Below, piece after piece: positions 13,456-64,000 of a DNA stretch of 64,000 nucleotides. The stretch is taken from positions 58,353 to 122,352 of the forward strand of contig CAZQBY010000002.1 of NCBI GenBank assembly GCA_964592405.1. Reading direction: 5' to 3'. The notes below the pieces were generated by a model. The model did not search any database. It saw only the letters and a list, made by a program, of their open reading frames with translations, and was not told the DNA's origin. This stretch comes from an uncultured archaeon. GTDB lineage: Archaea > Altiarchaeota > Altiarchaeia > JAFGQM01. The translations under genes were made by a program, and so were the position numbers. Every line of letters starts with the position of its first letter. Position 1 is the stretch's first letter.

Positions 13456-13509
13456 CTATTATTTAGAAACGGGGAGGGTAAAAGATTAACATTCTGCTTT
13501 TGATTTAGC

Positions 13510-14754: not shown

Positions 14755-14760
14755 ATATTG

Positions 14761-16035
14761 TTAATCAAAGCTTTTATTTAAATCCCCCCTATCGACGGTC
14801 TTCCCACTGATTATTGCATAGGCCTGAGAGTTTAATCTCTCCTCAAATGCCGAACTGGTTTCCCCTTCTGCCTTTTCAGTGTCAAATGCCGTAATAAAGC
14901 GTTTGATAAGCCATGCCTGCTTCTCATCCTTGGCATATTCCTCTATCAGGCGCCGTTCAAGGTTTTCCACGGTATCATGTGAAACCCTGACTTTTCCATA
15001 TTCTCTTGAGCTAAGCCCGCTGGTATTACGGAGGACAGCATACGCACCGTTCTCGTAGGCCATCTCCATATACCTTCGAAAATCTATATCAGTTGGCCGG
15101 CCTTCCTTAAGCGTGCCAAATACGCGCCAGAGGACTATCTGCCCGCCTTCTGATCCAGTCGCCGAGAGTCCAGAATTCAGGGTCTCTTTCGAACTGCTGG
15201 ATACTATCCTTTCCACACTCTGTGCAAGCTGAGCCTCTACCTCCCCGGGAGTCCTGCCATCAGCATTAATTTCATGGCATAAGATCGGATGAAGCACAAG
15301 TCTAATAAATGTGGGTTTGTTGTTATCTACAATAAAGAATCCGCATCCACTATCCGACAGATCCCACATCTCCCTGAAGTTGCAGGGAAAGATGGGTCCG
15401 GGGAATATCAGCCTCCCTCCATAGAAGTCAGTTTCGCTCCTGCGGTGTATATGTCCGCCGGCATAGTAGTCAAAACCCTTGGGAAGTAGCGACGCTGGTA
15501 TGCCCTCCACACGCTTCATATCCTCTGGTAGATAGTCCCTTATGCCTGAATGGAACATAAATATCTTATAGCCCTCACCCCTGCTTATGGAGCGGTCGAG
15601 TTCCCGATAGTATTGTTCTTCCAGGCCACCCTTCCTGCCAAACATGCCAACAATCATTGCTCCGGATTTGTCTTTGGTTGGATTCAGGACCAGTTTTCCA
15701 TTCTCTTCACTCCCCCTAGCCACATTCGTAATGAGCTCGGCATTCTCAAACACCCTGAGCATGGTTTTGCCTGAAGGGGAATAGTCATGCGAGCCGCAAA
15801 TTGTATAAACAGGAATTCCTGCTCTTTTGAGCAGGCTCAGCTTTTTTGAGACAAATGCCAGTGTATCAAGGGGTGGGACGGAGGTGTCAAACAGGTCGCC
15901 ACTTATGAGAATAAAATCAACATTCCGCTCTATGCAGATATCTACTGCCATCTCGAATGCCCTGAGATTTGCCTTCTGCAACTTTGGATCCCGCCACCCC
16001 CCCAGATGGAGGTCGGCCATGTGTGCAAATATCAT
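14761..16035 (-). CDS. mre11: Mre11 nuclease
   Basis: ADLHLG, GDLFD, GSHD and GGHIH motifs; ATG at 16035. Confidence 0.93.
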   Translation of the reverse strand: MIFAHMADLHLGGWRDPKLQKANLRAFEMAVDICIERNVDFILISGDLFDTSVPPLDTLAFVSKKLSLLKRAGIPVYTICGSHDYSPSGKTMLRVFENAELITNVARGSEENGKLVLNPTKDKSGAMIVGMFGRKGGLEEQYYRELDRSISRGEGYKIFMFHSGIRDYLPEDMKRVEGIPASLLPKGFDYYAGGHIHRRSETDFYGGRLIFPGPIFPCNFREMWDLSDSGCGFFIVDNNKPTFIRLVLHPILCHEINADGRTPGEVEAQLAQSVERIVSSSSKETLNSGLSATGSEGGQIVLWRVFGTLKEGRPTDIDFRRYMEMAYENGAYAVLRNTSGLSSREYGKVRVSHDTVENLERRLIEEYAKDEKQAWLIKRFITAFDTEKAEGETSSAFEERLNSQAYAIISGKTVDRGDLNKSFD

Positions 16036-16070
16036 TGTGACTACACTAAAATTATTCGGACTCACAAAAA

Positions 16071-16673
16071 TTACGGTTTTTCCTCCTCCCAGTCGGTATT
16101 TACATATCTGGTTATGTATTCAATAGGGACCTTGTTTATTGGAACCTGATGTACACTGCCATCCATAGCCCTAACCTCTGGTATGTGCCCGGGTTTCAGG
16201 CGGACCACTTCATAATCGCCGATTATGCCATGCTTCTTTGCCTTTTTGGCAGTCTCCGATATGTCCCTTATATACTCTTCGCTGACATTATTTAACATAC
16301 CTCCCGGGATTATGGTCAACTTTGTTTCGCTAGGCTCCCATATCCCAAGCCTGCTTTTCCCATGCCTTCCCTTAATCGCCCTCAGCATGAACCCCAGAAA
16401 ATCCTCCGGGTGGTGAAGCCGGTTTGTGACATTGACGACGTCTCCGCCCAACAGCCTGCTTATATCCCTCTCTGTGGGAAACTCTCGCATAGCCTTGGCG
16501 GACTGAGTAACCCTGTGACCAACAACTGCTCCCGGTTTTCCCGGCCTGTGAAGTACTATACCGGTGCAGATGCTGATTGGGGTATATATGGCATGGTGTT
16601 TGTTTGAAGCAACCACATAGCCGGACCCCAGCACCATTTTTTTTATCCTAGGCCTTGGAGACTTTGGAGGCAT
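16071..16673 (-). CDS. CheD/CNF1-fold deamidase-like orphan, copy 1
   Basis: YTPISICTGIV...VVGH and KLTIIPGGM align by eye with CheD TLGLGSCVAV...AMAH and AKIAGGASM; ATG 16673 lies 2 nt after the herA stop. Confidence 0.65.
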   Translation of the reverse strand: MPPKSPRPRIKKMVLGSGYVVASNKHHAIYTPISICTGIVLHRPGKPGAVVGHRVTQSAKAMREFPTERDISRLLGGDVVNVTNRLHHPEDFLGFMLRAIKGRHGKSRLGIWEPSETKLTIIPGGMLNNVSEEYIRDISETAKKAKKHGIIGDYEVVRLKPGHIPEVRAMDGSVHQVPINKVPIEYITRYVNTDWEEEKP

Positions 16674-16675
16674 TT

Positions 16676-18214
16676 TTATGAGAATTCCGACAGATCGGTC
16701 TTTGTCTGCCTGACAGACGATTGACATGAACCCGAGATAAAATCCCTATCAAACAGAGGGATGTGGACTGGAATGGCAAACTTTGTAAAGGTGGAGGTTA
16801 TCAGCGCCTCTCCCTTGTCCAGTGAGGCAATATTGCGTCCGTCCTTGCTAAGGTCTTGGGATGCACTCTCGATAATGGCACGCCTCTCCGGCTCCATCTC
16901 AATGCCCAATATTATCTTGGTGTTCATGTTGGCTAGGACCTCGCGCGGTATAAGGGATGGGAGCTGCGTTATCGCGATGAGGCCTATCTTGAACTTTCTA
17001 CCCTCCCGCGCAATGGTAGAGAAGATGTTCGGCCCGGCCTGCAACACGTCCTTCCCAAGGACGCGTGGAGCCTCCTCTATTATTATGGATATCACGGGCT
17101 TTGTGGAGAGCTTGCCATTCTTCTTGTAGTACTTGTACCTGTCCAGCGCCTCTGAGGCGACCATTGAGGATATGAGGAGTTCCAGCTCGCTGGAGAGTGG
17201 GGATGTGTCCACTATTACAGTCTTGCCCATCTCCAGTGCAGAAACCATGTTCTCCAGTGTATTCTCATACTTCTCCTCTGCAAAGACTCCCTCGCACTTG
17301 ACGGTACCGTCCTCCGATGATATGCCCAGTATGTTGAGTTTCCTTATCAGCACGGCAAGCGTTTCCTCCTTGACACCGGTAGCCGGTTCACCACTCAGTA
17401 TATTTGCCACCCACTCCTCCTTGTCCAATTTGTAGTATGTGAACAGCGCATCACGCTGGGCAGGTGAGAGATTGAGAACCCCTTGGAAGAACCACGGCTT
17501 CAGCAGGTGATAGTTTATCCTGAGCGTTTCCGCGCCAGCCGGCGGATTGGTGGAGTAATAGACAATTTTTTCTCCTGCCCTTGGGTGATTCCCCAGCCCC
17601 GCCTCTTTTCCGCCGGGGCCGTTGTAGTACTCATCATGCGGGTCAAGTATCAGCATACCGCAATAGTTCTTGTCAATGGCAGACCAAGACATTATTCTGA
17701 CAAGATTCGACTTGCCACGCCCGGTGGTGGCTGATATGAGGACATGGTGAGAGAGCACCTTCCTACCATCCAGCTCGACTGGTATGCCCATGTCTTTTGA
17801 TCCGGAGCGGATGTTGCCGACATAGAGGGCATTCTCCTCCCTGCCCAGGAAGTCCAGATCAGCCTTGTTTATCCTCCTGACAGGGCTGAAGAAGCTCGGC
17901 AACGTCTTGGGCATGCGCGCAATGCCTGCGTTTATGGACACCAGCCCTTTGACTTCTGCTAGAACATAATTGCGCAAGTCCGCCTCCATAAAGCCTAGAT
18001 CAGAGCCATGGCCCTCCAGTTCCATGCCGGAAAGCAGTTCCAGCGACTTTGGAGGTATCTGTGAGGCATAAAGGAGGTTGTATACCTGCAGAATGGTTTT
18101 TTTGTTGCCGTTCTCTGTCACAAGCAGCTCGCCCAGCTCCAGCTCCTCACCGCTTTTCTGGCGCACTAGAAGCTCGCCAAATTCCCCAGATAGAATCTGC
18201 CCAACTACTTCCAC
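16676..18214 (-). CDS. herA: HerA bipolar helicase
   Basis: N-terminal HAS barrel, [14 protein letters not shown] and [10 protein letters not shown]...ITQLP motifs. Confidence 0.93.
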
Positions 18215-24266: not shown

Positions 24267-25736
24267 ATGCCGCTGGGTGGTCTGAAATGGAGGGATGAGC
24301 TAGAGCCCAAGGAGTTCAGGAGAATCAAGAGCGAGGTCCAGATTCTGGGCATAGATGATGCGCCCTTCGGGAGGAAGGACAAGAATGTCAAGATAGTTGC
24401 AGTCCTTACGCGGGGTGCCAAGATGCTGGACGGCGTCTTTCACTCCAGTATAAAAAAGGATGGGCTTGATGCCACAGACAGGATAATCCAGCTTGTAAAG
24501 GACATAAAGCGTGAGAACGTGCGCACCATACTGCTGGACGGTATCACATACGGCGGCTTCAACACTGTTGACATCCAGAGAGTTTACCATGAGACTGGTA
24601 TTCCGGTAATTGTTTCTATGCAGAAGCGCCCGGACCACGCAAAGATACATGCAGCCCTGAGGAATCTTGAGAATGCAGATCTGAGGAAGAGTATGATAGA
24701 TGCAGCCGGCAGGGTATATGAGATCCGGCTGGATGGTAACAGAAAGGTTTATATGCAGACTGCCGGGATAAGGAGGGAAGATGCAGAGGAGATTATCAGG
24801 CTCACAACAGTTAATGGCCTGGTGCCGGAGCCAATACGGGCAGCCCATATGATAGCCAAGGGTGCCTACACTGAGATACCAAAAGAGCAGCGCAATGATG
24901 AATGGCTGCATATGAAAGCGTATAACTATGTGAGGGATACCCACAGAAAGGTCAAAAAGTGGAAGAGGAAAACCTTTCCGGGCTTTGCCGGCGAAGTAGT
25001 CAGCTTCCTTTTTGCCCTTTTGCTCGCCTGGCTCTTCATACAGATGTTGGGCTGGATGCTAAACACATCCTCACCACTGGTGGTTGTAGAATCAGAGTCT
25101 ATGGTGCATACCGGCGACTGGATGACATGGTATTTCGACCATAATCTTGACCCAATGACCTATGGCTTTGGCAGCGGGATGGGCGTCGGCGATATCATAA
25201 TCGTAAAGGGAGACAATCCTGATGATATAAACATAGGGGATGTAATCCTGTACACCAAATACAGCTCCAGGACAATCGGCGGCGAGCCGGTTATCCACAG
25301 GGTAGTTGGTATTGTGGGCATAAACGGTGATGAGGTTTACACTGAGGGCGCGGTAAGATGGGACGGAGAAAGGATTATTACACCATGTAGCAGCAGTTCT
25401 AGTTACAGCCTTGATGAGATAAGGAGCCTGTATTCGGGCGATGCTATAAACCGTGTAGTGCCGGGGGTGAAGGACGATCTGACCAGCTTCCGGCTTTTCA
25501 TAACAAAGGGGGACAACCCCAAAAACAATCCCCGGGAAGACCAGTGCAGATTTGGAGGCTCTCCGATGATATCCTATCCCGTCCATGAAAGAACTGTTGT
25601 TGGGAGGGCCAAACTTGACATTCCTTATATCGGATACGTCAAGCTGGGTCTGGTCTGCGCCTACCGCTTTGCCACAGGCAACGTCTGCGGCTGCAGGTGC
25701 TGGTGGGCCGCCGACCATCCCAACTGCTGCAGGTAA
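24267..25736 (+). CDS. Fusion of DUF99 (endonuclease V-like) domain and signal peptidase I (S26)
   Basis: N half: ILGIDDAPF, LLDGITYGGFN and PEPIRAAH. After a transmembrane helix: VVESESM, GDIIIV, VIHRVV and FITKGDN. Confidence 0.85.
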   Translation: MPLGGLKWRDELEPKEFRRIKSEVQILGIDDAPFGRKDKNVKIVAVLTRGAKMLDGVFHSSIKKDGLDATDRIIQLVKDIKRENVRTILLDGITYGGFNTVDIQRVYHETGIPVIVSMQKRPDHAKIHAALRNLENADLRKSMIDAAGRVYEIRLDGNRKVYMQTAGIRREDAEEIIRLTTVNGLVPEPIRAAHMIAKGAYTEIPKEQRNDEWLHMKAYNYVRDTHRKVKKWKRKTFPGFAGEVVSFLFALLLAWLFIQMLGWMLNTSSPLVVVESESMVHTGDWMTWYFDHNLDPMTYGFGSGMGVGDIIIVKGDNPDDINIGDVILYTKYSSRTIGGEPVIHRVVGIVGINGDEVYTEGAVRWDGERIITPCSSSSSYSLDEIRSLYSGDAINRVVPGVKDDLTSFRLFITKGDNPKNNPREDQCRFGGSPMISYPVHERTVVGRAKLDIPYIGYVKLGLVCAYRFATGNVCGCRCWWAADHPNCCR

Positions 25737-51358: not shown

Positions 51359-52627
51359 TTACGCAGCCAGCTCCTCTAATAGCGCGTCAATGACCTCCCT
51401 GAAGTCCTGCGCCTCGGCCTCCAGGTCGCCCTCGCGCTCGTGGGCGTTCCCAATCCTGTAGTACTTGCACCCAAAGACGAATGTCGGGACGCTGGGGGGC
51501 CTTGAACTGAAGGTGCTGTATATCTCCAACTCAGACTCTGGCACCTCGCTCTCGACCTCTTCAGTCAGTGTGTCGTCGCCCGTGATAACCTCCCAGTGGT
51601 GGGCGACTATCTTGCCCTCGTCCACATACTCTTTGACCGTAGAGTCAAACGTATCTTTTATCCAGTTGCAGTGCGGGCACCCAGTCGTCGTGAACAGGCG
51701 CACTATAGGCTTGCCGTCCTCTGTGCAGATGCCATCAGGCAATAGGAGGCTGTCAAACGATGCCACACTTTCGCCCCTCTCGGGTGGAGGCTCCGGGAAA
51801 TCGCCCTTCAGGGCTTTCTGGATAGGCTCCTCAAAGGCCGAGAACGGCTGTGCACCGACAACCTTGTAACCATTCTCACCGCCAACAAAGAATGTTGGAG
51901 TGCCTGTTACACCCCATTCTCTGCCCAATCGGGTATCAGCATCCACAACGGCCTTCTTCTCACCGCTGTCAAGGCAGGAATCGAATTTATCAGCGTCCAG
52001 CCCTATCTGAGCAGCATACTGCTTGAGATCATCAGGTTCCAGATTGCCCTGATTCTGGAACATTATATCATGCATCTCCCAGAACTTGCCCTGATCGCGC
52101 GCGCACTCGGCGGCCTCGGCGGCCTTTCTGGCAGAATCATGCACAATATAATGCTTGAACACAATAGCAACGTCATCCCCATATTTCTCTTTTATATTTG
52201 GTATTGCAGGTTTGTATGACGGATCTTGAGATTGGAACCGTTTAATCAGATTCTTGTTAAAGCCTGTTGCAGCGCTGCAGAACGGACACTTAAACTCACT
52301 GAACTCATAGATTAGGAGTTTGTCTCCGGTATCCTCTGTTCCGGCACCTTCGCCACTATCACCGGCAGTATTGTCGTTGCCTGTGGCACCAGTATTACCG
52401 CTCTCATCTCCCGTGCCGGCCGGCACAGTACCACTCTCCATATAGGTAGAAGCAACTGCTGCACCGATCGGGCAGTTCGCATTAGAAGCGAAGTAGAATG
52501 TTGCCATTCCCAACAGTAATACCAATACAACCAGACCCACAAACACGGGGTCCTGTATATATCTCGAATATGCCCTGCGGCTCTTCTTAGAGGCCTTTCC
52601 TTTGTTATCAGTTGTATTATCAGTCAT
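51359..52627 (-). CDS. Membrane-anchored DsbA-like protein with two thioredoxin domains
   Basis: N-terminal transmembrane helix; FSEFKCPFC...GVTGTPTF; second domain TTTGCPHC...VPTFVF. Confidence 0.88.
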   Translation of the reverse strand: MTDNTTDNKGKASKKSRRAYSRYIQDPVFVGLVVLVLLLGMATFYFASNANCPIGAAVASTYMESGTVPAGTGDESGNTGATGNDNTAGDSGEGAGTEDTGDKLLIYEFSEFKCPFCSAATGFNKNLIKRFQSQDPSYKPAIPNIKEKYGDDVAIVFKHYIVHDSARKAAEAAECARDQGKFWEMHDIMFQNQGNLEPDDLKQYAAQIGLDADKFDSCLDSGEKKAVVDADTRLGREWGVTGTPTFFVGGENGYKVVGAQPFSAFEEPIQKALKGDFPEPPPERGESVASFDSLLLPDGICTEDGKPIVRLFTTTGCPHCNWIKDTFDSTVKEYVDEGKIVAHHWEVITGDDTLTEEVESEVPESELEIYSTFSSRPPSVPTFVFGCKYYRIGNAHEREGDLEAEAQDFREVIDALLEELAA

Positions 52628-52745
52628 TTTCACGTTTTTTAGCTTTTTAGTTAATGTTGTCTTTTTTAGTTAGTTCAGTTTTTAGTTAATAGTTAATTGT
52701 TGGTTTGCTTATTTTTAATTATATTTTAACATTATCCTATAAAAA

Positions 52746-52811: not shown

Positions 52812-54170
52812 TTATTCTTTTCTGGCACCCACTAGCTTGGTGCAGATGTCTTTGTCATCGACACAATAATATTTCAGTTCAAGATAATCGCCAAATTCCT
52901 CTTTAAGCTTGTCTAGGAGGTGTCTCTGGTCCTCACAGGCCTGAGAGCCCGGCCTGTGGAATACCTGCAATAGGACAGTGTCATTATCTGGTTTGCAAGA
53001 TTCCTGCCCGGTCTCATACATCGAGAATATGTACTCCGTGGGCAACTGCACTTCTATATCCCCTGTTGCGTTGCTGAATACCCCCAAGGGTTCGCACAGT
53101 TGCCTTGGATTGCCATTATTATACATACAGGTAAGGGTCTTAAGAACATTTTCTTCCAAACCCTGCGGAACTTCGCCGGCCTGTTCGGCACTGGCAAGAG
53201 TCCTTGCCAAGGCAAATTTGCAGTTCCATACAAGGCGTGGAACAGATTCGATATTGTAAGCCTTAATCAGAACAGGGTTATATTCATCAAAGGTCACAGA
53301 GCTTTTATCCCTTAACTCATAGCTGTAGCGCAGTTTCCCGGGAGCGATCCTGTCCACATAGACAAAAACCCCCTTTCTGACATCCTCCTCCGGGATGTCC
53401 AGCTCATTGGTTACTATACCCTTCCTGAATCCATGTCTGTAGTAATAGCCATTCAGAGTAGTCTTCACAAAGCCGTCTCCTATCTCCAGCCTGTAGGGAT
53501 AAGAGGTTCCGCTACAATTGATTGTTTTAGGTATTGTCATTATATGTCGCTGAATGGCAGTGCCATTTACCCACCGGCCGATAAGGTTTGGTATAATTGC
53601 CTTCTCGTTAAATATCTTGGCACAGGACTGGAAGGTGTTTGGAGTACGCTGCGACCGCATGAACTCATCCGGCCTGAGCATGGCACCGTTGAGGCCTATA
53701 AATTGGAGCTCTAGATTTTCATCCAGAATGACATCAAATGTCCTGTATTCATCGGACCCCTCAATGGGAAATCTCACAATCGTTGACTTTGAATTGTTGC
53801 CAGAAATGATTTCGCCCTGATTGCGGAGTATTACAAAGTGGTTTGTCTCTTCCGCCAGGTCCATAGCATCACTCGCGGAGACTGTGGCTCTTGCTAGTAT
53901 ATGGGCCTTTCCAGAAGTATTTTCCTGTGGTGTTGTAAGAACCAGAATGCCTGCAGTGATTACTGCAAGACCCAATATCACTACAGCATAGTAGAAGAGA
54001 ATACTCCGCTTCCCTTCTGGTTTGCTTCCAGCTTTGGCTTCTGCCTTCTTTAGGTCCTTGGCTCCCGGTTTTGTCTCAGATTCTGTCTGCCTCTTTTCTG
54101 TTTGTTTCTGCTTCTTCTTTTTCCCTTTGTTTTCTTCTACTGCATTCCCTCTGGTTTCTTCTCTGTCCAT
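52812..54170 (-). CDS. Membrane-anchored protein with C-terminal degenerate thioredoxin domain (SxxC)
   Basis: Likely start ATG 54170; charged N-tail, transmembrane helix, then VLLQVFHRPGSQACEDQRHLLDKLKEEF. Confidence 0.75.
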   Translation of the reverse strand: MDREETRGNAVEENKGKKKKQKQTEKRQTESETKPGAKDLKKAEAKAGSKPEGKRSILFYYAVVILGLAVITAGILVLTTPQENTSGKAHILARATVSASDAMDLAEETNHFVILRNQGEIISGNNSKSTIVRFPIEGSDEYRTFDVILDENLELQFIGLNGAMLRPDEFMRSQRTPNTFQSCAKIFNEKAIIPNLIGRWVNGTAIQRHIMTIPKTINCSGTSYPYRLEIGDGFVKTTLNGYYYRHGFRKGIVTNELDIPEEDVRKGVFVYVDRIAPGKLRYSYELRDKSSVTFDEYNPVLIKAYNIESVPRLVWNCKFALARTLASAEQAGEVPQGLEENVLKTLTCMYNNGNPRQLCEPLGVFSNATGDIEVQLPTEYIFSMYETGQESCKPDNDTVLLQVFHRPGSQACEDQRHLLDKLKEEFGDYLELKYYCVDDKDICTKLVGARKE

Positions 54171-54368
54171 TTGCCTTTTTCTCCTTCCCCCTGCCCCAAC
54201 TTTTGAAACCCCTAATCTTGAAAGTAGATATATAAATACCTTGAGTTCGAGGAGATTGCTGGTGAGGCGATTGTCTGTTCTGTTACTCTTCCAAATGCTG
54301 CCTGTCTTTATATGGTAACTGTGTGCCTCCCCCAGATTCAGCAAGCTTACGCATCTTGGAAAGTCTGG

Positions 54369-56578: not shown

Positions 56579-57841
56579 TTAGATATTTTGAAAATCCCTC
56601 AATGACTTTTGGGTGTTGTCATAGAAGTTCTCCCTAAGTGGCTTTTTGTAGAGAGGCCGGCCATACCTTCCACCGCCACCAGCATCATAGAGCATACTGC
56701 CGTTTCTGAAGGACTCTATAATACCACCTATCTTGGAGTCATAATCTTTTAGGTCTGCAATAGGCGTGTCTATGAGTATAGTAATCTCAGGTCCAAATTC
56801 ATTTACCATGGTTTGCCACTCCGCCTGCACTTTCGGGCTGTGCAGGGTTTTCACCTCCCGTGCCATACTTATCACCTCCGCCAAGGGGACTATGTGAATA
56901 TACGGCGGTCTGTGTTCCGGGCGGACAGTCTTTCGTCCATGAGCGAGTTCTCCTATCCTCTCCCTGACGCCCTTCTTGATTACGCCTCCGCACTCAGGAC
57001 ATCTGCGTCCAAGACGGATGGCATCACTAATCCTGAATTTCAGAAAGCAACGCGTGCAAGCAGTTTCATGGTATTTTCCCTCCCGGGGGTTGAGACCCAC
57101 ATTTAGGATGAATCTCCGCCCGTTCTTCCGCTCTATGGCCTTTTTTATTTCCTTGAAGCTCAGATCTCTCACAAGCAGCCGGTTAAATTCTCTCCCGAGC
57201 CTGTGCGGCCACGGGCTGTGGGCATCGCTGTTGCTCATAAAGGTCATATCCCTCAGCTCCTCAATTCTGTCAGCCATGTCGCTGTCGGCACTCAGACCCA
57301 GCTCCAGGAATCTAACATATCTGAGATTATCGCCATAACACCCGCTCAGAGAGTCGTATGTTTTATAGACTGATGTCCAAGGTGTGAAAGCGTGGCACGG
57401 ACCTATCATCGCATCACAGTCATTGGCCAAGTCCACAAGCTCCTCACCGCTCAGCCCGACCCTCGGACGGCCATCCCTGTCTATGTCTGGCGAGCTCCCC
57501 TTTATATCATCCCTAAACCTGCGGGCACAGTCCAAATCAGGAAATAAGAGGAGGTGGTGCACACGATCCCTGCCCTCAACCTCTGCTGTTATGAGAAATC
57601 TTGTCTTTGAGTTGTTATAGGAATATATGCCATTACCATCATGCTCAAGATTCTTCTCAAGATGCTCCAGCCAGTGAGGGTTTGTGGCGTCGCCTGTTCC
57701 TACAACATCCAGCCCCTTGCCTTCCCCACCCTCGGCTATGCGAGGAATGTTCATATCCCTAGATGTGCCACCGGAATACCTGGAATGTATGTGGAAATCC
57801 ACATTTATTTCTTGCATAGCGGAATCGTCCAAATTGTCCAT
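56579..57841 (-). CDS. endQ: Endonuclease Q (TIGR00375 PHP family)
   Basis: DFHIHSRYS, GTGD, NSDAHS, GREFN and GKYH.TAC.RC...CPECG motifs. Confidence 0.85.
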   Translation of the reverse strand: MDNLDDSAMQEINVDFHIHSRYSGGTSRDMNIPRIAEGGEGKGLDVVGTGDATNPHWLEHLEKNLEHDGNGIYSYNNSKTRFLITAEVEGRDRVHHLLLFPDLDCARRFRDDIKGSSPDIDRDGRPRVGLSGEELVDLANDCDAMIGPCHAFTPWTSVYKTYDSLSGCYGDNLRYVRFLELGLSADSDMADRIEELRDMTFMSNSDAHSPWPHRLGREFNRLLVRDLSFKEIKKAIERKNGRRFILNVGLNPREGKYHETACTRCFLKFRISDAIRLGRRCPECGGVIKKGVRERIGELAHGRKTVRPEHRPPYIHIVPLAEVISMAREVKTLHSPKVQAEWQTMVNEFGPEITILIDTPIADLKDYDSKIGGIIESFRNGSMLYDAGGGGRYGRPLYKKPLRENFYDNTQKSLRDFQNI

Positions 57842-58793: not shown

Positions 58794-60431
58794 TCATCTC
58801 TTCGTGATGTTATATTTGGTAGCCCGCAGGAGGTTGGATATCCGGCGGGGAGGCTCCCCGATTCTCCCGGCCCGGAACAGAATCGCCAATATTACGATTA
58901 TCCCAATAGCAGCAATTATCCACAGCCAAAGCCCTCCACCAACAGCTTCGGGCTTCATGTCCGGTCTTTTGGAAGGTATCGTAGTTTCCATATTGGACGG
59001 CAACTGTTCTGCTGGTGGAGCTTCTCTTAAGAAAATCCTCTTGACTATCGTATCGCCCTTTGGTGTAACATAAGTAAATATCCAGTAGCCGGATTGGTCA
59101 GGAACTATTGTTGTATCTCCATCCTCCAGTCTCATCTTGAAAGAGCTTCCGTCTGGTTTTGTAATTATCAACTCACCATCGACAGCTATGCCACTGGAAT
59201 CCACCAAAGAAACGGTGAGTGTTCGCCCAACCTGAGGATTCTCCGTTCTCACAATAATTTCTATTTCGGCTTCTGGGGGAGTTGTTACATCCCCCCTTGG
59301 ATAGCCCGGCCAGAGATATGCTGTCACGGCTTCAGAAACCTCCTCTTCCTTTTTTGGCTTCTTGCAGTCGCGCCGGCAGGTTCGCCATGTCTCGCCGCAG
59401 TTGCATATCTTGTCCCCACAGTGAGAGACCAGAACTGAGGCAGAAGACTGGGAAGTGGTGGTGCCGTATGGGCCAACAATAGTTGCATTTACCAAGTTGG
59501 TTATGGAAGAGCACGAAGCAGTTGTGGTATAGCTCGTGGTATTGGATGCCCCGGGGGCAAGGAGGCTTATTGTGAAGTTTCTGCCGTTTGAATCGTTCAG
59601 GGTTACATTAACAGTTAACGAGCCTGTATTGTTGACAACTATAGTCCAGTTGAGGATGTCGCCGGGTTCCACTACCGAAGCATCCACTGATTTTGTAACT
59701 ACGACGCTCAGAGCTGTGTAGTTGACAGTCAGCCATGCAAGCGTGGTGTTGGCGCTGTTGCCTGCTGTGTCCTCACAGGCCGCCCAAACAGAGGAGTAAT
59801 TGCCATTGGCTAAGTCCGCCAGACTCCATGTTATATCCATACCGGAAGTGGAATTGACATAGTCAGTACCGTTGAAGTGGAGTGTGCAGTTCATGGCCTC
59901 GGAAGCATGTACGCCTATCCGGGTGTAATTGACATGTATTGTGGAGTTTATATCAGACCAGTTCCAGTCCGGGGCCGGGGAAATTGTGTCCACCCTGAGC
60001 CAATATGGATTAGAGTCTCCAGAGTTACCATACAGGTCTTCACAAGTGTAATAGATGGTGGAATAATTGCCGTTGCCCAGCCCTGTGATATACCAGGTTA
60101 TCTTGGTCGCGTTGCTGGTATTGATATAGTCCGTGCCGTTGAGATGGAGTGTGCAGTTGCCGGTTTCACTCAGAGAGACATTGAAGATGTGGTGGTCTGT
60201 TGATAGGGATGTATTTTTGGGGGAATTGACAGTAATGGAGGGGGGAACATCATCTGTTAGGACCAATGAGACACTGAAGGAGTCTGAAGCCGAATATGCC
60301 CCGGTTCCAGAATCTGCAAACAGAGTAGTAACACTGGCCAGAAGAAATGAAATCGCCAGCACTGCCATGAGGGAGTTTTGTTCCTTCAACTGGCCTCTTG
60401 TCTTTTGTTCATCCACCGGCTGTTTAATCAT
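58794..60431 (-). CDS. Surface protein: Ig-like repeats, DUF11, Cys-rich motif, C-terminal transmembrane anchor
   Basis: Signal or transmembrane N-terminus; two NCTLH.NGTDY repeats; TKSVD..VVEPGD..WTIVVNNTG; CGDKICNCGETWRTCRRDC; C-terminal WLWIIAAIGIIVILAILF. Confidence 0.85.
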   Translation of the reverse strand: MIKQPVDEQKTRGQLKEQNSLMAVLAISFLLASVTTLFADSGTGAYSASDSFSVSLVLTDDVPPSITVNSPKNTSLSTDHHIFNVSLSETGNCTLHLNGTDYINTSNATKITWYITGLGNGNYSTIYYTCEDLYGNSGDSNPYWLRVDTISPAPDWNWSDINSTIHVNYTRIGVHASEAMNCTLHFNGTDYVNSTSGMDITWSLADLANGNYSSVWAACEDTAGNSANTTLAWLTVNYTALSVVVTKSVDASVVEPGDILNWTIVVNNTGSLTVNVTLNDSNGRNFTISLLAPGASNTTSYTTTASCSSITNLVNATIVGPYGTTTSQSSASVLVSHCGDKICNCGETWRTCRRDCKKPKKEEEVSEAVTAYLWPGYPRGDVTTPPEAEIEIIVRTENPQVGRTLTVSLVDSSGIAVDGELIITKPDGSSFKMRLEDGDTTIVPDQSGYWIFTYVTPKGDTIVKRIFLREAPPAEQLPSNMETTIPSKRPDMKPEAVGGGLWLWIIAAIGIIVILAILFRAGRIGEPPRRISNLLRATKYNITKR

Positions 60432-60561
60432 CTGGGTAGTCCATCCCTTTTTTATTTCCTTGCATATTTCCTCCTGCTTTTATCCATCTCTCTGTTTTTA
60501 TTCACCCTTTTATGTTTTTACTCATCTTTTATGTTTTTATTCGCCTTTTTTCCACTTCTGT

Positions 60562-61290
60562 TCATCTATGTCTGTGCATATTCCAGAACCTAATCGACAA
60601 CAGCACTGTCACAGCAACTATGATTAATACTGCAATAACCACCAGCATGCTGCCATCTGCACCTGCACCGGCATTTGTCTGTTTCCTGATTTGTGGCAAT
60701 TCCGTCTGAGGACATTCGCCACAGTCTTCTGGACAGGTCTTGCAGGTCTCATCGCCGTTGCATTCTTTATCACCACACTCCGGCGGCAGGTTGACCGTTC
60801 TGGGAAGCTGGCCACAGCGATCCGGCACTACGGTATCTGAATCCACAACCCTTATGACAAATCCCGAACCTATTTTTCCAACAAGATTAACCATACCCGA
60901 TCCGGAGGGGGGAGCTACACCCTCAACCAAGAAGCTCACCCTATACTCCGCTCCTATCTCCTCACCGGCTGGGGGAGTTATATAGAAGATTATGGCTTCT
61001 GAGCTTCCTTTTGTGGTATTGTAAATCCCGTCTTCCCTCAGATCTACCTGCACGAAGTCCGGCAGAGATGATGGATTCAAGACCAATCTGGCCTGCCCAT
61101 GCTCAATTGTTGGTGATGTAGAAAGCCATATCCTGTGGCAGGTTGTCCCGCCTCTCGGGGCCTTGACCACTTCATCCTCCATATAGTCCTGGATGACACC
61201 TATACTCCCAAAAGCATCGGAAGTTAGGACCATTACCAGTACCAAGACAAGTAGTGGAAGGATCCATGATCCAAGTATTTTCCGGCTCAT
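60562..61290 (-). CDS. Surface protein: signal peptide, one beta-sandwich domain, Cys-rich motif, C-terminal transmembrane helix
   Basis: ITPPAGEEIGAEYRVSFLV...GSGFVIRV; CGDKECNGDETCKTCPEDCGEC. Confidence 0.82.
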   Translation of the reverse strand: MSRKILGSWILPLLVLVLVMVLTSDAFGSIGVIQDYMEDEVVKAPRGGTTCHRIWLSTSPTIEHGQARLVLNPSSLPDFVQVDLREDGIYNTTKGSSEAIIFYITPPAGEEIGAEYRVSFLVEGVAPPSGSGMVNLVGKIGSGFVIRVVDSDTVVPDRCGQLPRTVNLPPECGDKECNGDETCKTCPEDCGECPQTELPQIRKQTNAGAGADGSMLVVIAVLIIVAVTVLLSIRFWNMHRHR

Positions 61291-61381
61291 TTTGTTCCTC
61301 TTATAGTTTGCATTTTATTTTTTATTTGATTTTGTGAGAGGTTTTTGTTTTGTGGAAGTGTTTGATTTTGTGAAAATGAAA

Positions 61382-61398
61382 TGGGGCTTTTCGCCCCA
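61382..61398 (-). terminator. GC stem-loop (TGGGGC-GAAAA-GCCCCA) just after the putative major subunit gene
   Basis: 6-bp stem 9 nt after the 61407 stop, followed by TTTCATTTT on the minus strand. Confidence 0.5.
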
Positions 61399-61406
61399 AA
61401 AGTCAT

Positions 61407-62297
61407 TTACGGATTCTGGTTTCCTGCATTGTATACTGTCAGCACCCAATTCTGTGCAGAATTGTAGGTCTGCGGACTGACTAGAGACGATATCTGCTCC
61501 AGGTATACATAGACATCCTCTGTGCTTCCCTGGCCGATTAACAAACTCGTGCCAGCCACAGTAACAGCTGTGTCGTTTGCAAGTTGCTCGCCCTCTGAGG
61601 CATCAACATCGTTCGCACTGAAATCGCTTGCGGCTATCTTGTCTGTTGCATCTGTTGTCCCTACCAGCTCGTATGCGGTTATGTTCAGGTTTGCGAAGTA
61701 GGCGTTGCCCAGATTCTCTACGGTAACCGGGTCGTCGTCCGCACCCACATTTGTGCTGGTCTGGGAGACTGAACTCCAGCTTATCGAGGCTGGTGTTACA
61801 TCCACAGACTCCAGCCGGTTGTATGTCAGCGTCTGCGTGTCGTCGTTGTCTGAAGCCGAACTGTTATCAACTACTGTACAGTTCACTACCCAGTCAGAAC
61901 CGGACAGGTAGTAGTACTGCATGTTGCCACCAGTGCAGTTCAGGGTTACCGTCGTTGCACTGGAATTGCTTATATTCGTGCAACTCAGGTTTACGACAGT
62001 GCTTCCCTTGCTGACATTACAGTAGGTGGCACTCAGGTTTATGTCTTTCCAGCCATCCTCGTCCGTTACATCTATTGCTACGCTTATTGCGGTTACGCTT
62101 CCTGACGTCGGATTGTAGGTTCCACCATTACCCACTGTTACCGAATTTATGACAGGTGCGGTGTTGCCAAGGACAAGCGACGCGCTGAATGTGTCACTCG
62201 CTGAGTCGGCAGCCAAAACAAGAGTGGCTCCGAAAACAGCGGCAATCGCCAGCGAAAAAAGCGCCAAGCTCATGCTTATTCCATTTCTGTTTCTCAT
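61407..62297 (-). CDS. Secreted two-domain protein, putative major filament/surface subunit
   Basis: GGAGG Shine-Dalgarno sequence; signal peptide; no C-terminal transmembrane helix; ends QTYNSAQNWVLTVY. Confidence 0.85.
   Translation of the reverse strand: MRNRNGISMSLALFSLAIAAVFGATLVLAADSASDTFSASLVLGNTAPVINSVTVGNGGTYNPTSGSVTAISVAIDVTDEDGWKDINLSATYCNVSKGSTVVNLSCTNISNSSATTVTLNCTGGNMQYYYLSGSDWVVNCTVVDNSSASDNDDTQTLTYNRLESVDVTPASISWSSVSQTSTNVGADDDPVTVENLGNAYFANLNITAYELVGTTDATDKIAASDFSANDVDASEGEQLANDTAVTVAGTSLLIGQGSTEDVYVYLEQISSLVSPQTYNSAQNWVLTVYNAGNQNP
61545..61828. repeat. 284-bp segment, copy 1 (identical to 62492-62775)
   Basis: Line-by-line comparison at offset 947 shows no mismatch; similarity with mismatches continues about 60 nt further. 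Confidence 0.9.
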
Positions 62298-62350
62298 TCC
62301 CTTTTCCTCCTTTTTGTTTTGTTTGTTTTTTGTGTGTTATGTTGTGACTT

Positions 62351-64000
62351 TTATGGATTTGAGTTCTCTGCTCCGTAGACCATCAGCTCCCACGGCGATA
62401 CCGAACTGTATGACTGCTTGCCCAGCGGGGCGTTTGAGATCTGCTCCAGATAAACATATACGTCCTCTGTGCTTCCTGCTCCGATTAACAGACTCGTGCC
62501 AGCCACAGTAACAGCTGTGTCGTTTGCAAGTTGCTCGCCCTCTGAGGCATCAACATCGTTCGCACTGAAATCGCTTGCGGCTATCTTGTCTGTTGCATCT
62601 GTTGTCCCTACCAGCTCGTATGCGGTTATGTTCAGGTTTGCGAAGTAGGCGTTGCCCAGATTCTCTACGGTAACCGGGTCGTCGTCCGCACCCACATTTG
62701 TGCTGGTCTGGGAGACTGAACTCCAGCTTATCGAGGCTGGTGTTACATCCACAGACTCCAGCCGGTTGTATGTCATATTTGTTGATGATTTGTTGCTTGC
62801 AGAGTTGTTGCTCTGGTCATATACCGTGCAGTTCACCTCCCAGTCATCTCCGCTCAGATAGTAATACTGCATGTATCCCGTGCAGGATAATGCTATGGTA
62901 GTGGAGCTTGAGTTTGTCAGGTTAGTGCATGAGCTCAGGTTGACTGTCCTTGAGCCCTTCGTGACATTGCAGTAGGAGTTGGTCCAGTTGACATCCTGCC
63001 AGCCGTCGGAATCGGTGACGTTCATGGTGATGTTTATTAGGGTGGCACCGCCCGATGTCGGATTGTAGACACCGCCGTTGCCAACTGTGATATCCTTGAC
63101 AGACAACGTGGGCATCTCCCCTATAGTGTAGTTGCTCCATGCACTGACGTTGAAGACTACCACAGCAGCGTTTAGAGGGGTGAGATTGTGACAGCATGGG
63201 GTGGTGGTATCATCACAGACCGCTCCATTCCTGAGTATCACCGGGTTGCTGAAGCCCCACTCGTCGATTTCGTAGAGGGTAATGTTGGCAGGCCTGTCGA
63301 ATCCGGGAGCCGCGACGGTGTCCACAGTAACTGTGTTATTGCCTATATAGACTATTGAGCTGATGCCCACATTTAAACTTGAACCAGTCCCGTTGACGGC
63401 CTGCAAGAAGCGTATCTCTCCCTGGTTGGTGTCTCTGAAGTAGACAGGAGAACCATTCTGGCTTATGTTGTAGGTGCCGAGATGCGTGTCTATCAGATAG
63501 GTGATGGTGGTGTCCTGTCCTATATAGAGGTCAGAATAACCAGATTTTGTTACACTTACAGTGATGTTTGTGAAGTTATTCTCGCCGGAAACCGAGCCGC
63601 TTATGTCTATGCCATCCTCGCTTGAGTTGTAGATTGAGATGTTCTCGAATACATTACCATAGGTCGCACTCAGAAGTATACCGTTCTTCGCGGTGTCATT
63701 TATCACGGCATTGGAAAAGGTGTTGTTATAGCCGCCAAGAATCACTATGCCCTTGTTGGAGTTATTGACCAGTTCGATGTTGGTGAAGGAGCAGCCATGG
63801 CACGAGTCGCTGTTACAGAATATGCCATGGTAGGTGTTGTGACTGGATGTTATGTTGTCAGCCGATACATTCACTGTGTCACTCCTGAGATATAGGCCAT
63901 AATAGCCATTTCTAAGGGCGGTTATGTTGGTCAGCACGGCGTGGTCCGACCACCGGATATACACACCGGACTGATGATTGTCATTTGTGACTATGTTCTT
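62351..64000 (-). CDS. Large surface protein: right-handed beta-helix repeats plus the same two C-terminal domains as 61407 (5' end lies outside the window)
   Basis: N..GI.L PbH1-type repeats; PANITLY...PVILRNG..C...C.N...FNVSAWSNYTIG motif; frame open to base 64000. Confidence 0.88.
   Translation of the reverse strand, partial: KNIVTNDNHQSGVYIRWSDHAVLTNITALRNGYYGLYLRSDTVNVSADNITSSHNTYHGIFCNSDSCHGCSFTNIELVNNSNKGIVILGGYNNTFSNAVINDTAKNGILLSATYGNVFENISIYNSSEDGIDISGSVSGENNFTNITVSVTKSGYSDLYIGQDTTITYLIDTHLGTYNISQNGSPVYFRDTNQGEIRFLQAVNGTGSSLNVGISSIVYIGNNTVTVDTVAAPGFDRPANITLYEIDEWGFSNPVILRNGAVCDDTTTPCCHNLTPLNAAVVVFNVSAWSNYTIGEMPTLSVKDITVGNGGVYNPTSGGATLINITMNVTDSDGWQDVNWTNSYCNVTKGSRTVNLSSCTNLTNSSSTTIALSCTGYMQYYYLSGDDWEVNCTVYDQSNNSASNKSSTNMTYNRLESVDVTPASISWSSVSQTSTNVGADDDPVTVENLGNAYFANLNITAYELVGTTDATDKIAASDFSANDVDASEGEQLANDTAVTVAGTSLLIGAGSTEDVYVYLEQISNAPLGKQSYSSVSPWELMVYGAENSNP
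62492..62775. repeat. 284-bp segment, copy 2 (identical to 61545-61828)
   Basis: See copy 1. Confidence 0.9.

What the first reader, a model, noticed from the sequence alone, without database searches (positions are those of the whole stretch)
58794..64000. Four-gene surface operon with the logic of a donor-strand filament (tip, major subunit, accessory, anchor)
Seen, in transcription order: (A) a large beta-helix adhesin-like protein ending in a two-domain module; (B) a small secreted protein made of only an N-terminal strand plus the same module, with a strong Shine-Dalgarno sequence and a stem-loop behind it; (C) a one-domain membrane protein; (D) an Ig-repeat/DUF11 stalk with a C-terminal transmembrane helix that begins with the same N-terminal strand as B but lacks the module. 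The module ends in a Y-x5-6-WxL strand (YNSAQNWVL, YSSVSPWEL) and contains ISW...VTVENLGN, reminiscent of WxL and TasA-like domains. Established: chaperone-usher pili, TasA and archaeal bundling pili polymerise by donor-strand complementation, and Firmicute WxL clusters pair large and small WxL proteins with a membrane DUF916 protein. Inference: an undescribed archaeal non-type-IV fimbria in which B polymerises, A caps the tip, D terminates and anchors, and C assists assembly; possibly used for host attachment.
Basis: partly seen in the sequence, partly recalled or inferred. Interest (0 to 1): 0.82.

Follow-up and report, generated by a model that had tools for sequence, protein, structure and literature searches.

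The report
Archaeal surface-assembly operon, possible donor-strand fibre
Four neighbouring genes of an uncultured methanogen-like archaeon encode a conserved, undescribed set of cell-surface proteins that look built to plug into one another, perhaps as a short fibre carrying an enzyme or adhesin, but polymerisation could not be tested here.

Summary
On the minus strand lie A (62351 to beyond 64000, cut by the window end), B (61407-62297), C (60562-61290) and D (58794-60431).

- **Shared module:** A ends in the two-domain module that makes up nearly all of B (75% identity, including a 284-nt identical tract).
- **Shared strand:** B and D start, after their signal peptides, with the same amphipathic strand.
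- **Anchors:** C and D each have a C-terminal membrane helix.
- **Expression signals:** B has a GGAGG ribosome-binding site and a stem-loop right after its stop codon.
- **Conservation:** gene order A-B-C-D recurs in four related lineages. The B-C pair recurs in lineages with only about 30% identity to B.
- **Family size:** at least 1,111 representative clusters, with no Pfam, NCBIfam or PDB sequence match.
- **Fold:** AlphaFold2 (pLDDT 92) gives two beta-sandwiches with an undocked N-terminal strand. Foldseek finds only generic Ig-like folds.

Homology to WxL or TasA is not supported. Neither is a DPANN host, since the window encodes purF, thiC, glnA, leuA and SepCysS. The closest parallel in gene logic is the Firmicute WxL cluster; in mechanism, archaeal threads and Tafi.

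A donor-strand chain D→Bn→A is consistent with the data and is my preferred model (about 0.4), but it is untested.

The parts
62351..64000 (-). Gene A, C-terminal 549 codons; the N-terminus lies beyond the window. It is a secreted large protein: right-handed beta-helix (about 63518-63949), a small beta domain, then the two-domain module (62351-63100).
   Evidence: Frame open to base 64000. Pfam Beta_helix 3.5e-8. Module 75% identical to B. A2 profile E 5.6e-72. Only the last ~354 aa are shared with the L001 orthologue, whose N-terminus is a GH5 mannanase. 31 N-glycosylation sequons.
62492..62775 (-). 284-nt tract in A that is identical to B 61545-61828 (domain 2 of the module): recent gene conversion between A and B.
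   Evidence: In L005 a different part of the module (domain 1) is identical between A and B.
62306..62310 (-). GGAGG ribosome-binding site 8 nt upstream of the ATG of B.
   Evidence: Read directly. The same GGAGG is present in the L001 A-B spacer.
61407..62297 (-). Gene B, 296 aa: signal peptide (aa 1-29), N-terminal strand region (aa 30-47, 62157-62210), beta-sandwich domain 1 (aa ~48-160), beta-sandwich domain 2 (aa ~161-296) ending in the W284-x-L strand.
   Evidence: AlphaFold2 pLDDT 92.2, with no secondary structure for aa 23-47. No Pfam, NCBIfam or PDB sequence hit. 1,111 representative homologues. 10 sequons, 4 Cys, pI 4.05.
62157..62210 (-). B N-terminal extension 'ADSASDTFSASLVLGNTA': an amphipathic strand followed by the GNxAP linker; candidate donor strand.
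   Evidence: Alternating hydrophobic columns (F37 47%, A39 64%, L41 93%, L43 99% hydrophobic across 101-103 sequences). Shared with D. Only B and D carry the motif in the window.
61372..61398 (-). Stem-loop TGGGGCGAAAAGCCCCA plus TTTCATTTTC, 9 nt after the stop codon of B: a likely attenuator or 3' stabiliser that raises B output relative to C and D.
   Evidence: dG -15.7, z -4.0, 0 of 200 shuffles as stable. Hairpins of different sequence at the same place in L001, L003 and L015, but not in L005.
60562..61290 (-). Gene C, 242 aa: signal peptide, conserved mature N-terminus 'SIGVIQDYMED', one ~125-aa beta domain, Cys-rich knot CGDKECNGDETCKTCPEDCGEC, TM helix (60592-60648), basic tail.
   Evidence: No Pfam or PDB family. 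A C-like gene follows the small gene in L001, L003, L005, L015, L011, L018 and L020.
60493..60550 (-). Three imperfect ~19-20-nt direct repeats in the C-D spacer, followed by a 13-codon upstream ORF with its own AGGAGG whose stop overlaps the ATG of D. Possible regulatory or translational-coupling element for D.
   Evidence: for the repeats. The upstream ORF was read directly. Not followed further.
58794..60431 (-). Gene D, 545 aa: signal peptide, N-terminal strand 'SASDSFSVSLVL' (60258-60293), two Big_13-like Ig domains, a DUF11/CARDB-like domain, Cys knot CGDKICNCGETWRTCRRDC, a further beta domain, TM helix (58875-58931), a 26-aa conserved cytoplasmic tail. No module.
   Evidence: D-type proteins with the same strand, unrelated ectodomains and, where the C-terminus is on the contig, a C-terminal TM helix occur in L001 and L015; L005_D has the strand but is cut by the contig end. 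24 sequons.

Best explanation
This is a conserved archaeal cell-surface assembly cluster built from two separable interaction elements: a two-beta-sandwich module (the likely acceptor) and an orphan amphipathic beta-strand at the mature N-terminus (the likely donor).

Shown:
- A is variable cargo plus the module. The cargo is a beta-helix here, a GH5 mannanase in one relative and a beta-propeller in another.
- B is the strand plus the module. Its ribosome-binding site and the hairpin after it suggest it is made in excess.
- D is the strand, a variable Ig-rich ectodomain and a membrane helix.
- C is a membrane-tethered single beta domain and the most constant partner of B.
- All four are Sec-exported. 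A, B and D carry many glycosylation sequons.

Inferred mechanism:
- The proteins join head to tail by insertion of the N-terminal strand into the module of the next protein.
- The membrane-anchored D donates its strand to a B. Each B donates to the next B. The chain ends in A, which has an acceptor but, as far as can be seen, no donor.
- The result is a stalk or thin fibre of unknown length that holds an enzyme or adhesin away from the cell.
- C either anchors or primes B at the membrane through its own conserved N-terminal strand, in the way WxLIP is predicted to bind WxL domains.

That the four proteins co-function at the surface is near certain (about 0.85). Strand donation in trans with B as a repeating unit is the preferred but untested model.
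For: - Module shared by A and B, with repeated gene conversion in two lineages.
- A-B-C-D order conserved in the window, L001, L005 and L015/L016 (in L005 D runs off the contig); A-B-C in L003, L006 and L011.
- D-type proteins in L001, L005 and L015 keep the N-terminal strand while their ectodomains are unrelated; L001_D and L015_D end in a C-terminal TM helix, and L005_D is cut by the contig end.
- The strand is conserved as F-x-V-x-L-x-V/I then G-N in 104 small homologues. By comparison with inter-domain junctions in the large proteins, it corresponds to the last strand of a missing preceding Ig domain.
- AlphaFold2 (pLDDT 92) folds both domains and leaves residues 23-47 without secondary structure.
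- The one full-length close-lineage A (L015) lacks the strand after its signal peptide.
- The hairpin after B is conserved in position but not in sequence.
- Small strand-plus-module genes make up 71% of the top 157 family members and can stand alone or with C only. That fits a self-associating structural subunit.
- Precedents: the thread subunit with its donor-only putative cap Saci_0405 (PMC9715654), and the Tafi tip and anchor proposal (PMC12337348).
Against: - There is no direct evidence for an open acceptor groove. Both domains are predicted with pLDDT 97-98 as apparently complete sandwiches, and no coordinates or multimer prediction were available.
- Residues 41-50 have pLDDT 95, so part of the strand region may pack in cis.
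- Foldseek finds only generic tandem Ig/FnIII folds: RbmA TM 0.23-0.30, CfaB TM 0.42.
- In many relatives the large protein carries a TM helix immediately after the module, so it cannot be a distal tip there.
- Some large relatives (P0011, P0067) have strand-like N-termini.
- The most conserved pair is B-C, as in non-filamentous WxL clusters.
Confidence: 0.4

Rival explanations
1. Non-polymeric surface display complex, an archaeal analogue of the Firmicute WxL/Csc cluster. The module is a docking domain. The membrane protein C (and D) binds the module of A and of B by strand or hairpin insertion and so retains them on the membrane. B is a small partner of fixed stoichiometry, not a repeating subunit.
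For: There is a one-to-one parallel in gene architecture with WxL clusters, which hold a small protein that is only the domain, a large protein with that domain at its C-terminus behind beta-helix or Ig adhesin domains, an Ig-like protein with a C-terminal TM helix, and a further anchored protein (PMC9772566, PMC10599100).
B-C is the most conserved linkage here.
The cargo of A includes a GH5 mannanase, as in the carbohydrate-utilisation reading of Csc clusters.
The module sits directly on the membrane in many large relatives.
Against: It does not explain why B and the unrelated D proteins share an orphan N-terminal strand.
It does not explain why B has an attenuator-like hairpin and a strong ribosome-binding site.
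It does not explain why small genes occur alone (L009, L021).
There is no sequence or profile similarity to WxL, DUF916 or DUF3324.
Confidence: 0.28
2. Two-dimensional surface layer or sheath. B is the lattice protein, A-type proteins co-assemble through the same module to display cargo, and C and D are membrane stalks, in the manner of SlaA/SlaB.
For: B looks like an abundant, acidic, glycosylated secreted protein with a terminator hairpin.
The family is widespread and often present as a lone small gene.
Module-bearing large proteins have the module next to the membrane.
Against: A 27-kDa two-domain protein is small for an archaeal S-layer protein.
The cargo and ectodomains of A and D are swapped between close relatives, which suggests an accessory rather than an essential envelope.
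No similarity to known S-layer folds appears among the top Foldseek hits.
Confidence: 0.15
3. No trans interaction of the strand. The shared N-terminus of B and D is simply the first (A) strand of related Ig-like domains, or a signal-peptidase or export context. The four genes encode independently acting surface proteins that are merely co-regulated.
For: The pattern strand, then GNxAP kink, then strand could be a split A/A' strand.
Residues 41-50 have pLDDT 95.
Similar alternating patterns occur at other secreted N-termini.
Against: The segment aligns with the last strand plus linker of inter-domain junctions in the large proteins, not with a domain's first strand.
DSSP finds no pairing for it.
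The conserved synteny, gene conversion and B-C coupling argue for physical interaction.
Confidence: 0.12

Closest known systems
WxL / Csc cell-surface clusters of Lactobacillales and Listeria (small WxL, large WxL, WxLIP = DUF916-DUF3324-TM, LPxTG protein)
   Same: Same four-part gene logic: a small secreted protein consisting only of the shared C-terminal domain; a large protein with variable beta-helix, Ig or enzyme-like N-terminal domains and that domain at its C-terminus; an Ig-like protein with a C-terminal TM helix; and a further anchored protein. Binding by beta-strand insertion is predicted for WxLIP-WxL (PMC10599100). The last strand carries a W-x-L.
   Different: No sequence or profile homology (no Pfam WxL, DUF916 or DUF3324 hit).
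One W-x-L rather than two.
The module is two beta-sandwiches.
Archaeal host without peptidoglycan.
C has one domain, not two.
B and D carry an orphan N-terminal strand that is not described for WxL proteins.
Archaeal thread filament of Sulfolobus acidocaldarius (Saci_0406 with putative cap Saci_0405; PDB structure, PMC9715654)
   Same: Sec signal peptide cleaved by signal peptidase I.
N-terminal donor strand.
Beta-sandwich subunit with many N-glycans.
A co-transcribed protein with the donor strand but no acceptor (compare D).
No chaperone or usher.
   Different: No sequence match to any PDB chain, and the thread is not among the top 50 Foldseek hits.
Here the donor-only protein is membrane-anchored.
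An acceptor-only protein carries large cargo.
A dedicated membrane Ig protein (C) is present.
Euryarchaeal rather than crenarchaeal host.
Tat-fimbriae (Tafi) of haloarchaea (TafA/TafE pilins, TafC proposed tip, TafF proposed membrane anchor, TafD signal peptidase; PMC12337348, PMC11821415)
   Same: An operon with a proposed tip, a major pilin and a membrane anchor. Assembly by strand donation.
   Different: Tat signal peptides and a dedicated signal peptidase in the locus; neither is present here.
Jelly-roll pilin fold.
No sequence or Foldseek similarity detected.
TasA / archaeal bundling pili (AbpA) / camelysin family (Pfam Peptidase_M73)
   Same: An N-terminal strand right after the signal peptide with an F-x-x-x-L-x-L type pattern, and an N-x-G-N/S motif in a beta-sandwich.
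   Different: No Pfam Peptidase_M73 hit. The NCBIfam TasA model hits only D, at E 0.11.
No Foldseek hit in the top 50.
No SipW-type peptidase or TapA-like gene in the cluster.
Two domains instead of one jelly roll.
Chaperone-usher pili (e.g. CFA/I CfaB, type 1, P pili)
   Same: Tip-adhesin, major-subunit and terminator logic.
A hairpin after the major subunit gene.
CfaB is a weak Foldseek match (E 3e-3, TM 0.42 over ~150 aa).
   Different: No usher and no PapD-like chaperone (no Pfam hits).
No outer membrane.
The terminator here is a TM-anchored protein.

Membership tests
WxL domain proteins / WxL cluster | Pfam WxL domain (PF13731) with two conserved W-x-L motifs at the C-terminus | tested here: not met
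   No Pfam hit for A or B at E<=1. None for 59 relatives at E<=10. Only one invariant Trp (W284) in a W-x-L/I strand.
WxL domain proteins / WxL cluster | Cluster of small plus large domain-bearing proteins with a DUF916-DUF3324-TM protein | tested here: inconclusive
   The architecture is matched (small B, large A, membrane Ig protein C). However, C and its six homologues have no DUF916 or DUF3324 hit. This is analogy, not membership.
TasA / camelysin / AbpA (Peptidase_M73) | Profile match to Peptidase_M73 or to the NCBIfam TasA model | tested here: not met
   No hit for B or for 59 relatives. The TasA NCBIfam model hits D only, at E 0.11 and 11.9 bits against a cut-off of 450.
TasA / camelysin / AbpA (Peptidase_M73) | TasA-like jelly-roll fold | tested here: not met
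   Foldseek against PDB: the top 50 are RbmA, integrin calf domains, Fabs and CfaB. No TasA or AbpA entry is listed. Caveat: the query was a two-domain model, not split into domains.
Archaeal thread (Saci_0406, arCOG10215) | Sequence or fold similarity to Saci_0406 | tested here: not met
   phmmer and profile searches against PDB sequences found no thread chain. It is not in the Foldseek top 50.
Donor-strand-complemented filaments (general mechanism) | N-terminal extension with alternating hydrophobic residues that is not part of the subunit's own fold | tested here: met
   Conserved F-x-V-x-L-x-V pattern in 104 sequences. No secondary structure and lower pLDDT for residues 23-44 in a pLDDT-92 model.
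Donor-strand-complemented filaments (general mechanism) | Acceptor groove in the subunit, filled in trans by the neighbour's strand | not testable with these tools
   No multimer prediction and no access to model coordinates.
Chaperone-usher pili | Usher and PapD-like periplasmic chaperone genes in the operon | tested here: not met
   None of A-D hits Usher or PapD families. C has no Pfam family.
Type IV pili / archaella | Class III signal peptide, hydrophobic N-terminal helix, and PilB/PilC-like ATPase and platform | tested here: not met
   B has a classical signal peptide with an A-x-A-type site (VLA|AD) followed by a polar beta-strand. No ATPase or platform gene lies in or next to the cluster.

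The most novel reading that the evidence does not exclude
This would be a fourth structural class of archaeal donor-strand pili or stalks, beside ABP/thread-like, CanA-like and Tafi. It would be found in more than 1,000 sequence clusters across uncultured archaea. A Sec-exported two-Ig-domain subunit would polymerise without chaperone or usher. A transmembrane protein carrying only the donor strand would anchor and terminate the fibre. An acceptor-only protein would place interchangeable cargo (glycoside hydrolase, beta-helix, beta-propeller) at the distal end. The outcome would be an archaeal counterpart of both pili and cellulosome-like enzyme display.
Probability: 0.35. Interest if true: 0.8.

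Novelty: new variant of a known kind. Interest (0 to 1): 0.62.

Why it matters
Archaeal surface appendages other than type IV pili are known from only a few cultured extremophiles (threads, bundling pili, cannulae, Tafi).

This family has no Pfam or NCBIfam model and no solved relative, yet it has at least 1,111 representative clusters at 50% identity. It also has a recurrent operon grammar: acceptor-only, donor-plus-acceptor, donor-plus-anchor, and a membrane Ig partner.

If the strand-donation model is right, three things follow:
- It defines how many uncultured archaea, including methanogen- or ANME-like lineages, tether enzymes and adhesins to a cell that lacks a wall.
- It shows convergence with the WxL clusters of Gram-positive bacteria.
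- It offers a simple, chaperone-free, modular display scaffold.

The hypothesis can be tested directly with AF-Multimer and with one recombinant protein.

Tried and rejected
- **First AlphaFold2 run** with 9 close sequences failed (pLDDT 45). It was redone with 59 diverse sequences.
- **Second homologue search** with the 59-sequence profile returned only 9 proteins because of the word-index cap and added nothing.
- **Locus scans:** Genome contigs found only the L001 contig again. Viral contigs found none. Alignments A2 and A4 were too diverse for locus scanning.
- **Foldseek:** PDB and BFVD gave only generic Ig-like matches.
- **Sequence and profile searches for B, C and D:** PDB searches gave noise only, such as IL-21 receptor at E 0.003 and actin at E ~1.
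- **The listing of cluster members** returned no names or taxa, so the organism could not be named.
- **Rfam** found nothing in the window.
- **Rejected, type IV pilus:** there is no class III signal peptide and no ATPase.
- **Rejected, chaperone-usher system:** there is no usher or chaperone.
- **Rejected, viral origin:** the L012/L015 context has many small ORFs upstream, but no viral contig carries the family.
- **Rejected, a formal test of co-variation between the B and D strands:** only five lineages are available. Within-genome similarity (6-7 of 9 positions) is not clearly above between-genome similarity.

Full report
**1. What is there**

Four ORFs lie head to tail on the minus strand.
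- A runs from beyond base 64000 to 62351. The frame is open to the window end, so only its last 549 codons are visible and more genes may lie upstream.
- B is 61407-62297 (296 aa).
- C is 60562-61290 (242 aa).
- D is 58794-60431 (545 aa).
- Downstream come housekeeping genes: a PAC2-family proteasome assembly chaperone, a protein with no Pfam match (56579-57841), and GatB.

A has a right-handed beta-helix (Pfam 3.5e-8). Its last 250 residues are 75% identical to B residues 50-296 (E 1e-124). A 284-nt stretch is identical at the DNA level, which points to recent gene conversion. In the relative L005 a different part of the module is identical between A and B, so homogenisation recurs.

B is a signal peptide, then 'ADSASDTFSASLVLGNTAP', then the module. 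D has 'SASDSFSVSLVL' after its own signal peptide. D also has Ig-like regions with only sub-threshold hits to Big_13, DUF7507, CARDB and DUF11, a C-terminal TM helix and no module.

C has a signal peptide, a conserved mature N-terminus (SIGVIQDYMED), one beta domain, a Cys-rich knot that D also carries, a TM helix and a basic tail.

GGAGG precedes B. A stable stem-loop with a T-rich tail follows its stop codon (dG -15.7, z -4.0).

**2. Conservation**

Only eight 90%-identity clusters are close to B. Every contig long enough shows the same order:
- A-like protein ending in the module,
- B,
- C,
- then, where the contig reaches far enough, a D-type protein.

The D-type proteins of L001, L005 and L015 have unrelated ectodomains with no Pfam hits. 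All start with the B-like strand (AADSANDTFSVSLTL, SADFATDTFVATAEIL, AFDTFTASVVL). L001_D and L015_D end in a TM helix and a basic tail; L005_D is cut by the contig end. The L003 protein at this position has at most a weak version of the strand and is also cut.

The cargo of A is swapped even between close relatives:
- Window A and L001 A share only their last ~354 residues (69% identity).
- L001 A starts with a GH5 beta-mannanase (PDB 8gf3, E 6e-45).
- L015 A is a PQQ-type beta-propeller.

The one full-length close-lineage A (L015) has an ordinary signal peptide and no B-like strand.

A hairpin directly after B is present in the window, L001, L003 and L015 with different sequences, and absent in L005.

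**3. The wider family**

A profile of B found 1,111 representative proteins at E<=1e-3, and 792 at E<=1e-10, among 1.84 billion.

Of the best 157, 112 are small proteins of the B type. The other 45 are large and fall into two groups:
- module at the extreme C-terminus, as in A;
- module followed immediately by a TM helix, an RKKK stretch and a cytoplasmic tail with two sigma-70-region-4-like HTH repeats (Pfam 1.4e-6 in L011 A).

At ~30% identity to B the linkage persists:
- L011 has large-small-C-like.
- L018 has the tail of a large protein, then small, then C-like.
- L020 has small followed by C-like (C profile E 1.5e-14 and 8.8e-10).
- L009 and L021 have the small gene without C.

The B-C pair is thus the most conserved core. 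None of B, C or 59 relatives of B matches any Pfam family convincingly. The exception is DUF7034, weakly, in 6 of 59. NCBIfam and PDB sequence searches are also empty.

**4. Structure**

With 59 diverse sequences AlphaFold2 gives pLDDT 92.2 and pTM 0.78.
- Domain 1 (about residues 48-160) and domain 2 (about 161-296) are both all-beta sandwiches at pLDDT 97-98.
- Residues 23-47 have no secondary structure.
- Block confidences are 56 (residues 21-30), 74 (31-40) and 95 (41-50).

Foldseek against PDB (to April 2026) returns only generic tandem Ig/FnIII proteins: RbmA (E 2e-4, TM 0.23-0.30), integrin calf domains, Fabs, and the CFA/I pilin CfaB (E 3e-3, TM 0.42). No TasA, AbpA, thread, cannula or Tafi entry is in the top 50. 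BFVD is equally generic.

**5. The N-terminal strand**

Across 104 aligned small proteins, the positions equivalent to B residues F37, A39, L41 and L43 are 47%, 64%, 93% and 99% hydrophobic. The intervening positions are T, S or N, and a near-invariant G-N-x-A-P follows.

In the large relatives the same pattern, followed by a D/N-x-x-P linker, is the last strand of the Ig domain that precedes the module (for example 'RTFWVNVTPVTNVAPQI' in L011 A and 'AWYNVDTTPSII' in L015 A). In B and D the strand is therefore best read as an orphan last strand without its domain. That is the classical make-up of a donor strand.

This is inference from sequence. Partial packing in cis is not excluded, given pLDDT 95 for residues 41-50.

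**6. Mechanism**

Shown:
- The proteins are exported. A, B and D carry many glycosylation sequons (31, 10 and 24; C has 1) and all four are Cys-containing.
- They are co-conserved.
- They share two interaction elements in a combinatorial pattern.

Preferred model (confidence about 0.4): head-to-tail assembly by strand insertion, from membrane-anchored D to Bn to A, with C as anchor or primer for B. Its length is unknown; it could be a short stalk rather than a long fimbria.

Precedents exist. The thread subunit Saci_0406 has a co-transcribed protein, Saci_0405, that has the donor strand but no acceptor (PMC9715654). Tafi loci have a proposed tip (TafC) and anchor (TafF) (PMC12337348).

Rivals:
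- A WxL-like complex that does not polymerise (0.28). WxL clusters have the same small, large and membrane-Ig grammar, and AlphaFold2 predicts that WxLIP inserts a hairpin into WxL (PMC9772566, PMC10599100).
- A planar lattice (0.15).
- No trans interaction at all (0.12).

The fact that many large relatives are TM-anchored right after the module argues against a universal 'A is the tip' rule.

**7.

- WxL and TasA are analogies at best (see the membership tests).
- The organism is not an obviously reduced DPANN. The window encodes PurF, GlyA, ThiC, GlnA, LeuA, SepCysS, 2-phosphoglycerate kinase, pyruvate:ferredoxin oxidoreductase, a methanopterin-type radical-SAM methylase, and Rad50/Mre11/HerA. 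This is the profile of a methanogen- or ANME-like euryarchaeon.
- Host attachment is thus unsupported. A mannanase cargo in the nearest relative points instead to polymer degradation or substrate adhesion.

**8. Novelty and verdict**

The family is real, large and undescribed in Pfam, NCBIfam, PDB and the literature searched. The assembly principle proposed is known from other archaeal and bacterial fibres, so I rate it a new variant of a known kind. Interest is 0.62: a clear, cheap, decisive test exists, but nothing yet shows polymerisation.

Noticed in passing
window 60432-60561 (minus strand), C-D spacer: Three imperfect ~19-20-nt direct repeats (60493-60550). There is also a 13-codon upstream ORF with its own AGGAGG whose stop codon overlaps the ATG of D (ATGATTAA). 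This may be translational coupling or regulation of D.
   Followed up: partly
window 24267-25736 (+): A single 489-aa ORF joins an endonuclease dU / PRK00766-like N-terminal half (7e-62) to a segment matching archaeal signal peptidase I (TIGR02228, 1.4e-13, just below cut-off). This is an unusual fusion, or two genes read as one.
   Followed up: no
window 51359-52633 (-) and 52812-54344 (-): The first is a membrane-anchored DsbA/thioredoxin-like protein (Pfam 1e-22). The second is a TM protein with a Cys-rich ectodomain. Both lie 4-7 kb downstream of D. They might oxidise the conserved cysteines of A-D: B has 4 Cys, C 8 and D 10.
   Followed up: no
C residues ~165-192 (window ~60715-60798) and D residues ~338-356 (window ~59364-59420): C and D share a Cys-rich motif, CGD[KG]xCNxxExxxxCxxDC, just outside the membrane-proximal region. 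It is also present in L001 C and D, but not in L015 C. It has no Pfam match.
   Followed up: partly
L011 1579-6177; L018 3-356; L021 2553-3074; proteins P0036, P0042, P0054, P0077 and others: Large family members have an N-terminal cytoplasmic coiled-coil, a TM helix, a giant ectodomain, the module, a second TM helix, and a cytoplasmic tail with two sigma70-region-4-like HTH repeats ('LNRDERTIWTAYKKA'). In L021 this tail is a separate 173-aa gene overlapping the start of the small gene. This suggests membrane-tethered transcription factors linked to this surface system.
   Followed up: partly
L012 / L015 / L016, 1-7800: About 15 short same-strand ORFs without Pfam matches (one is DUF6948) lie upstream of the A-B-C-D cluster in the 51%-identity lineage. 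This looks like a mobile or viral-like region, but no IMG/VR contig carries the family.
   Followed up: partly
window 11425-18214 (-): A Rad50 / unnamed 414-aa ORF / Mre11 / 218-aa ORF / HerA-like gene block typical of archaea. It is ordinary and useful only for placing the organism.
   Followed up: no
Small family members such as P0018, P0020, P0085 and P0089 (first 45 residues): About a quarter of the small proteins carry an extra conserved segment, 'AGF-x-DWF-x-x-ITG[KR]A', between the signal peptide and the strand. Large relatives have 'F[ST]FTGF[AT]V' right after their N-terminal TM helix. This may be a processing or sorting motif.
   Followed up: no
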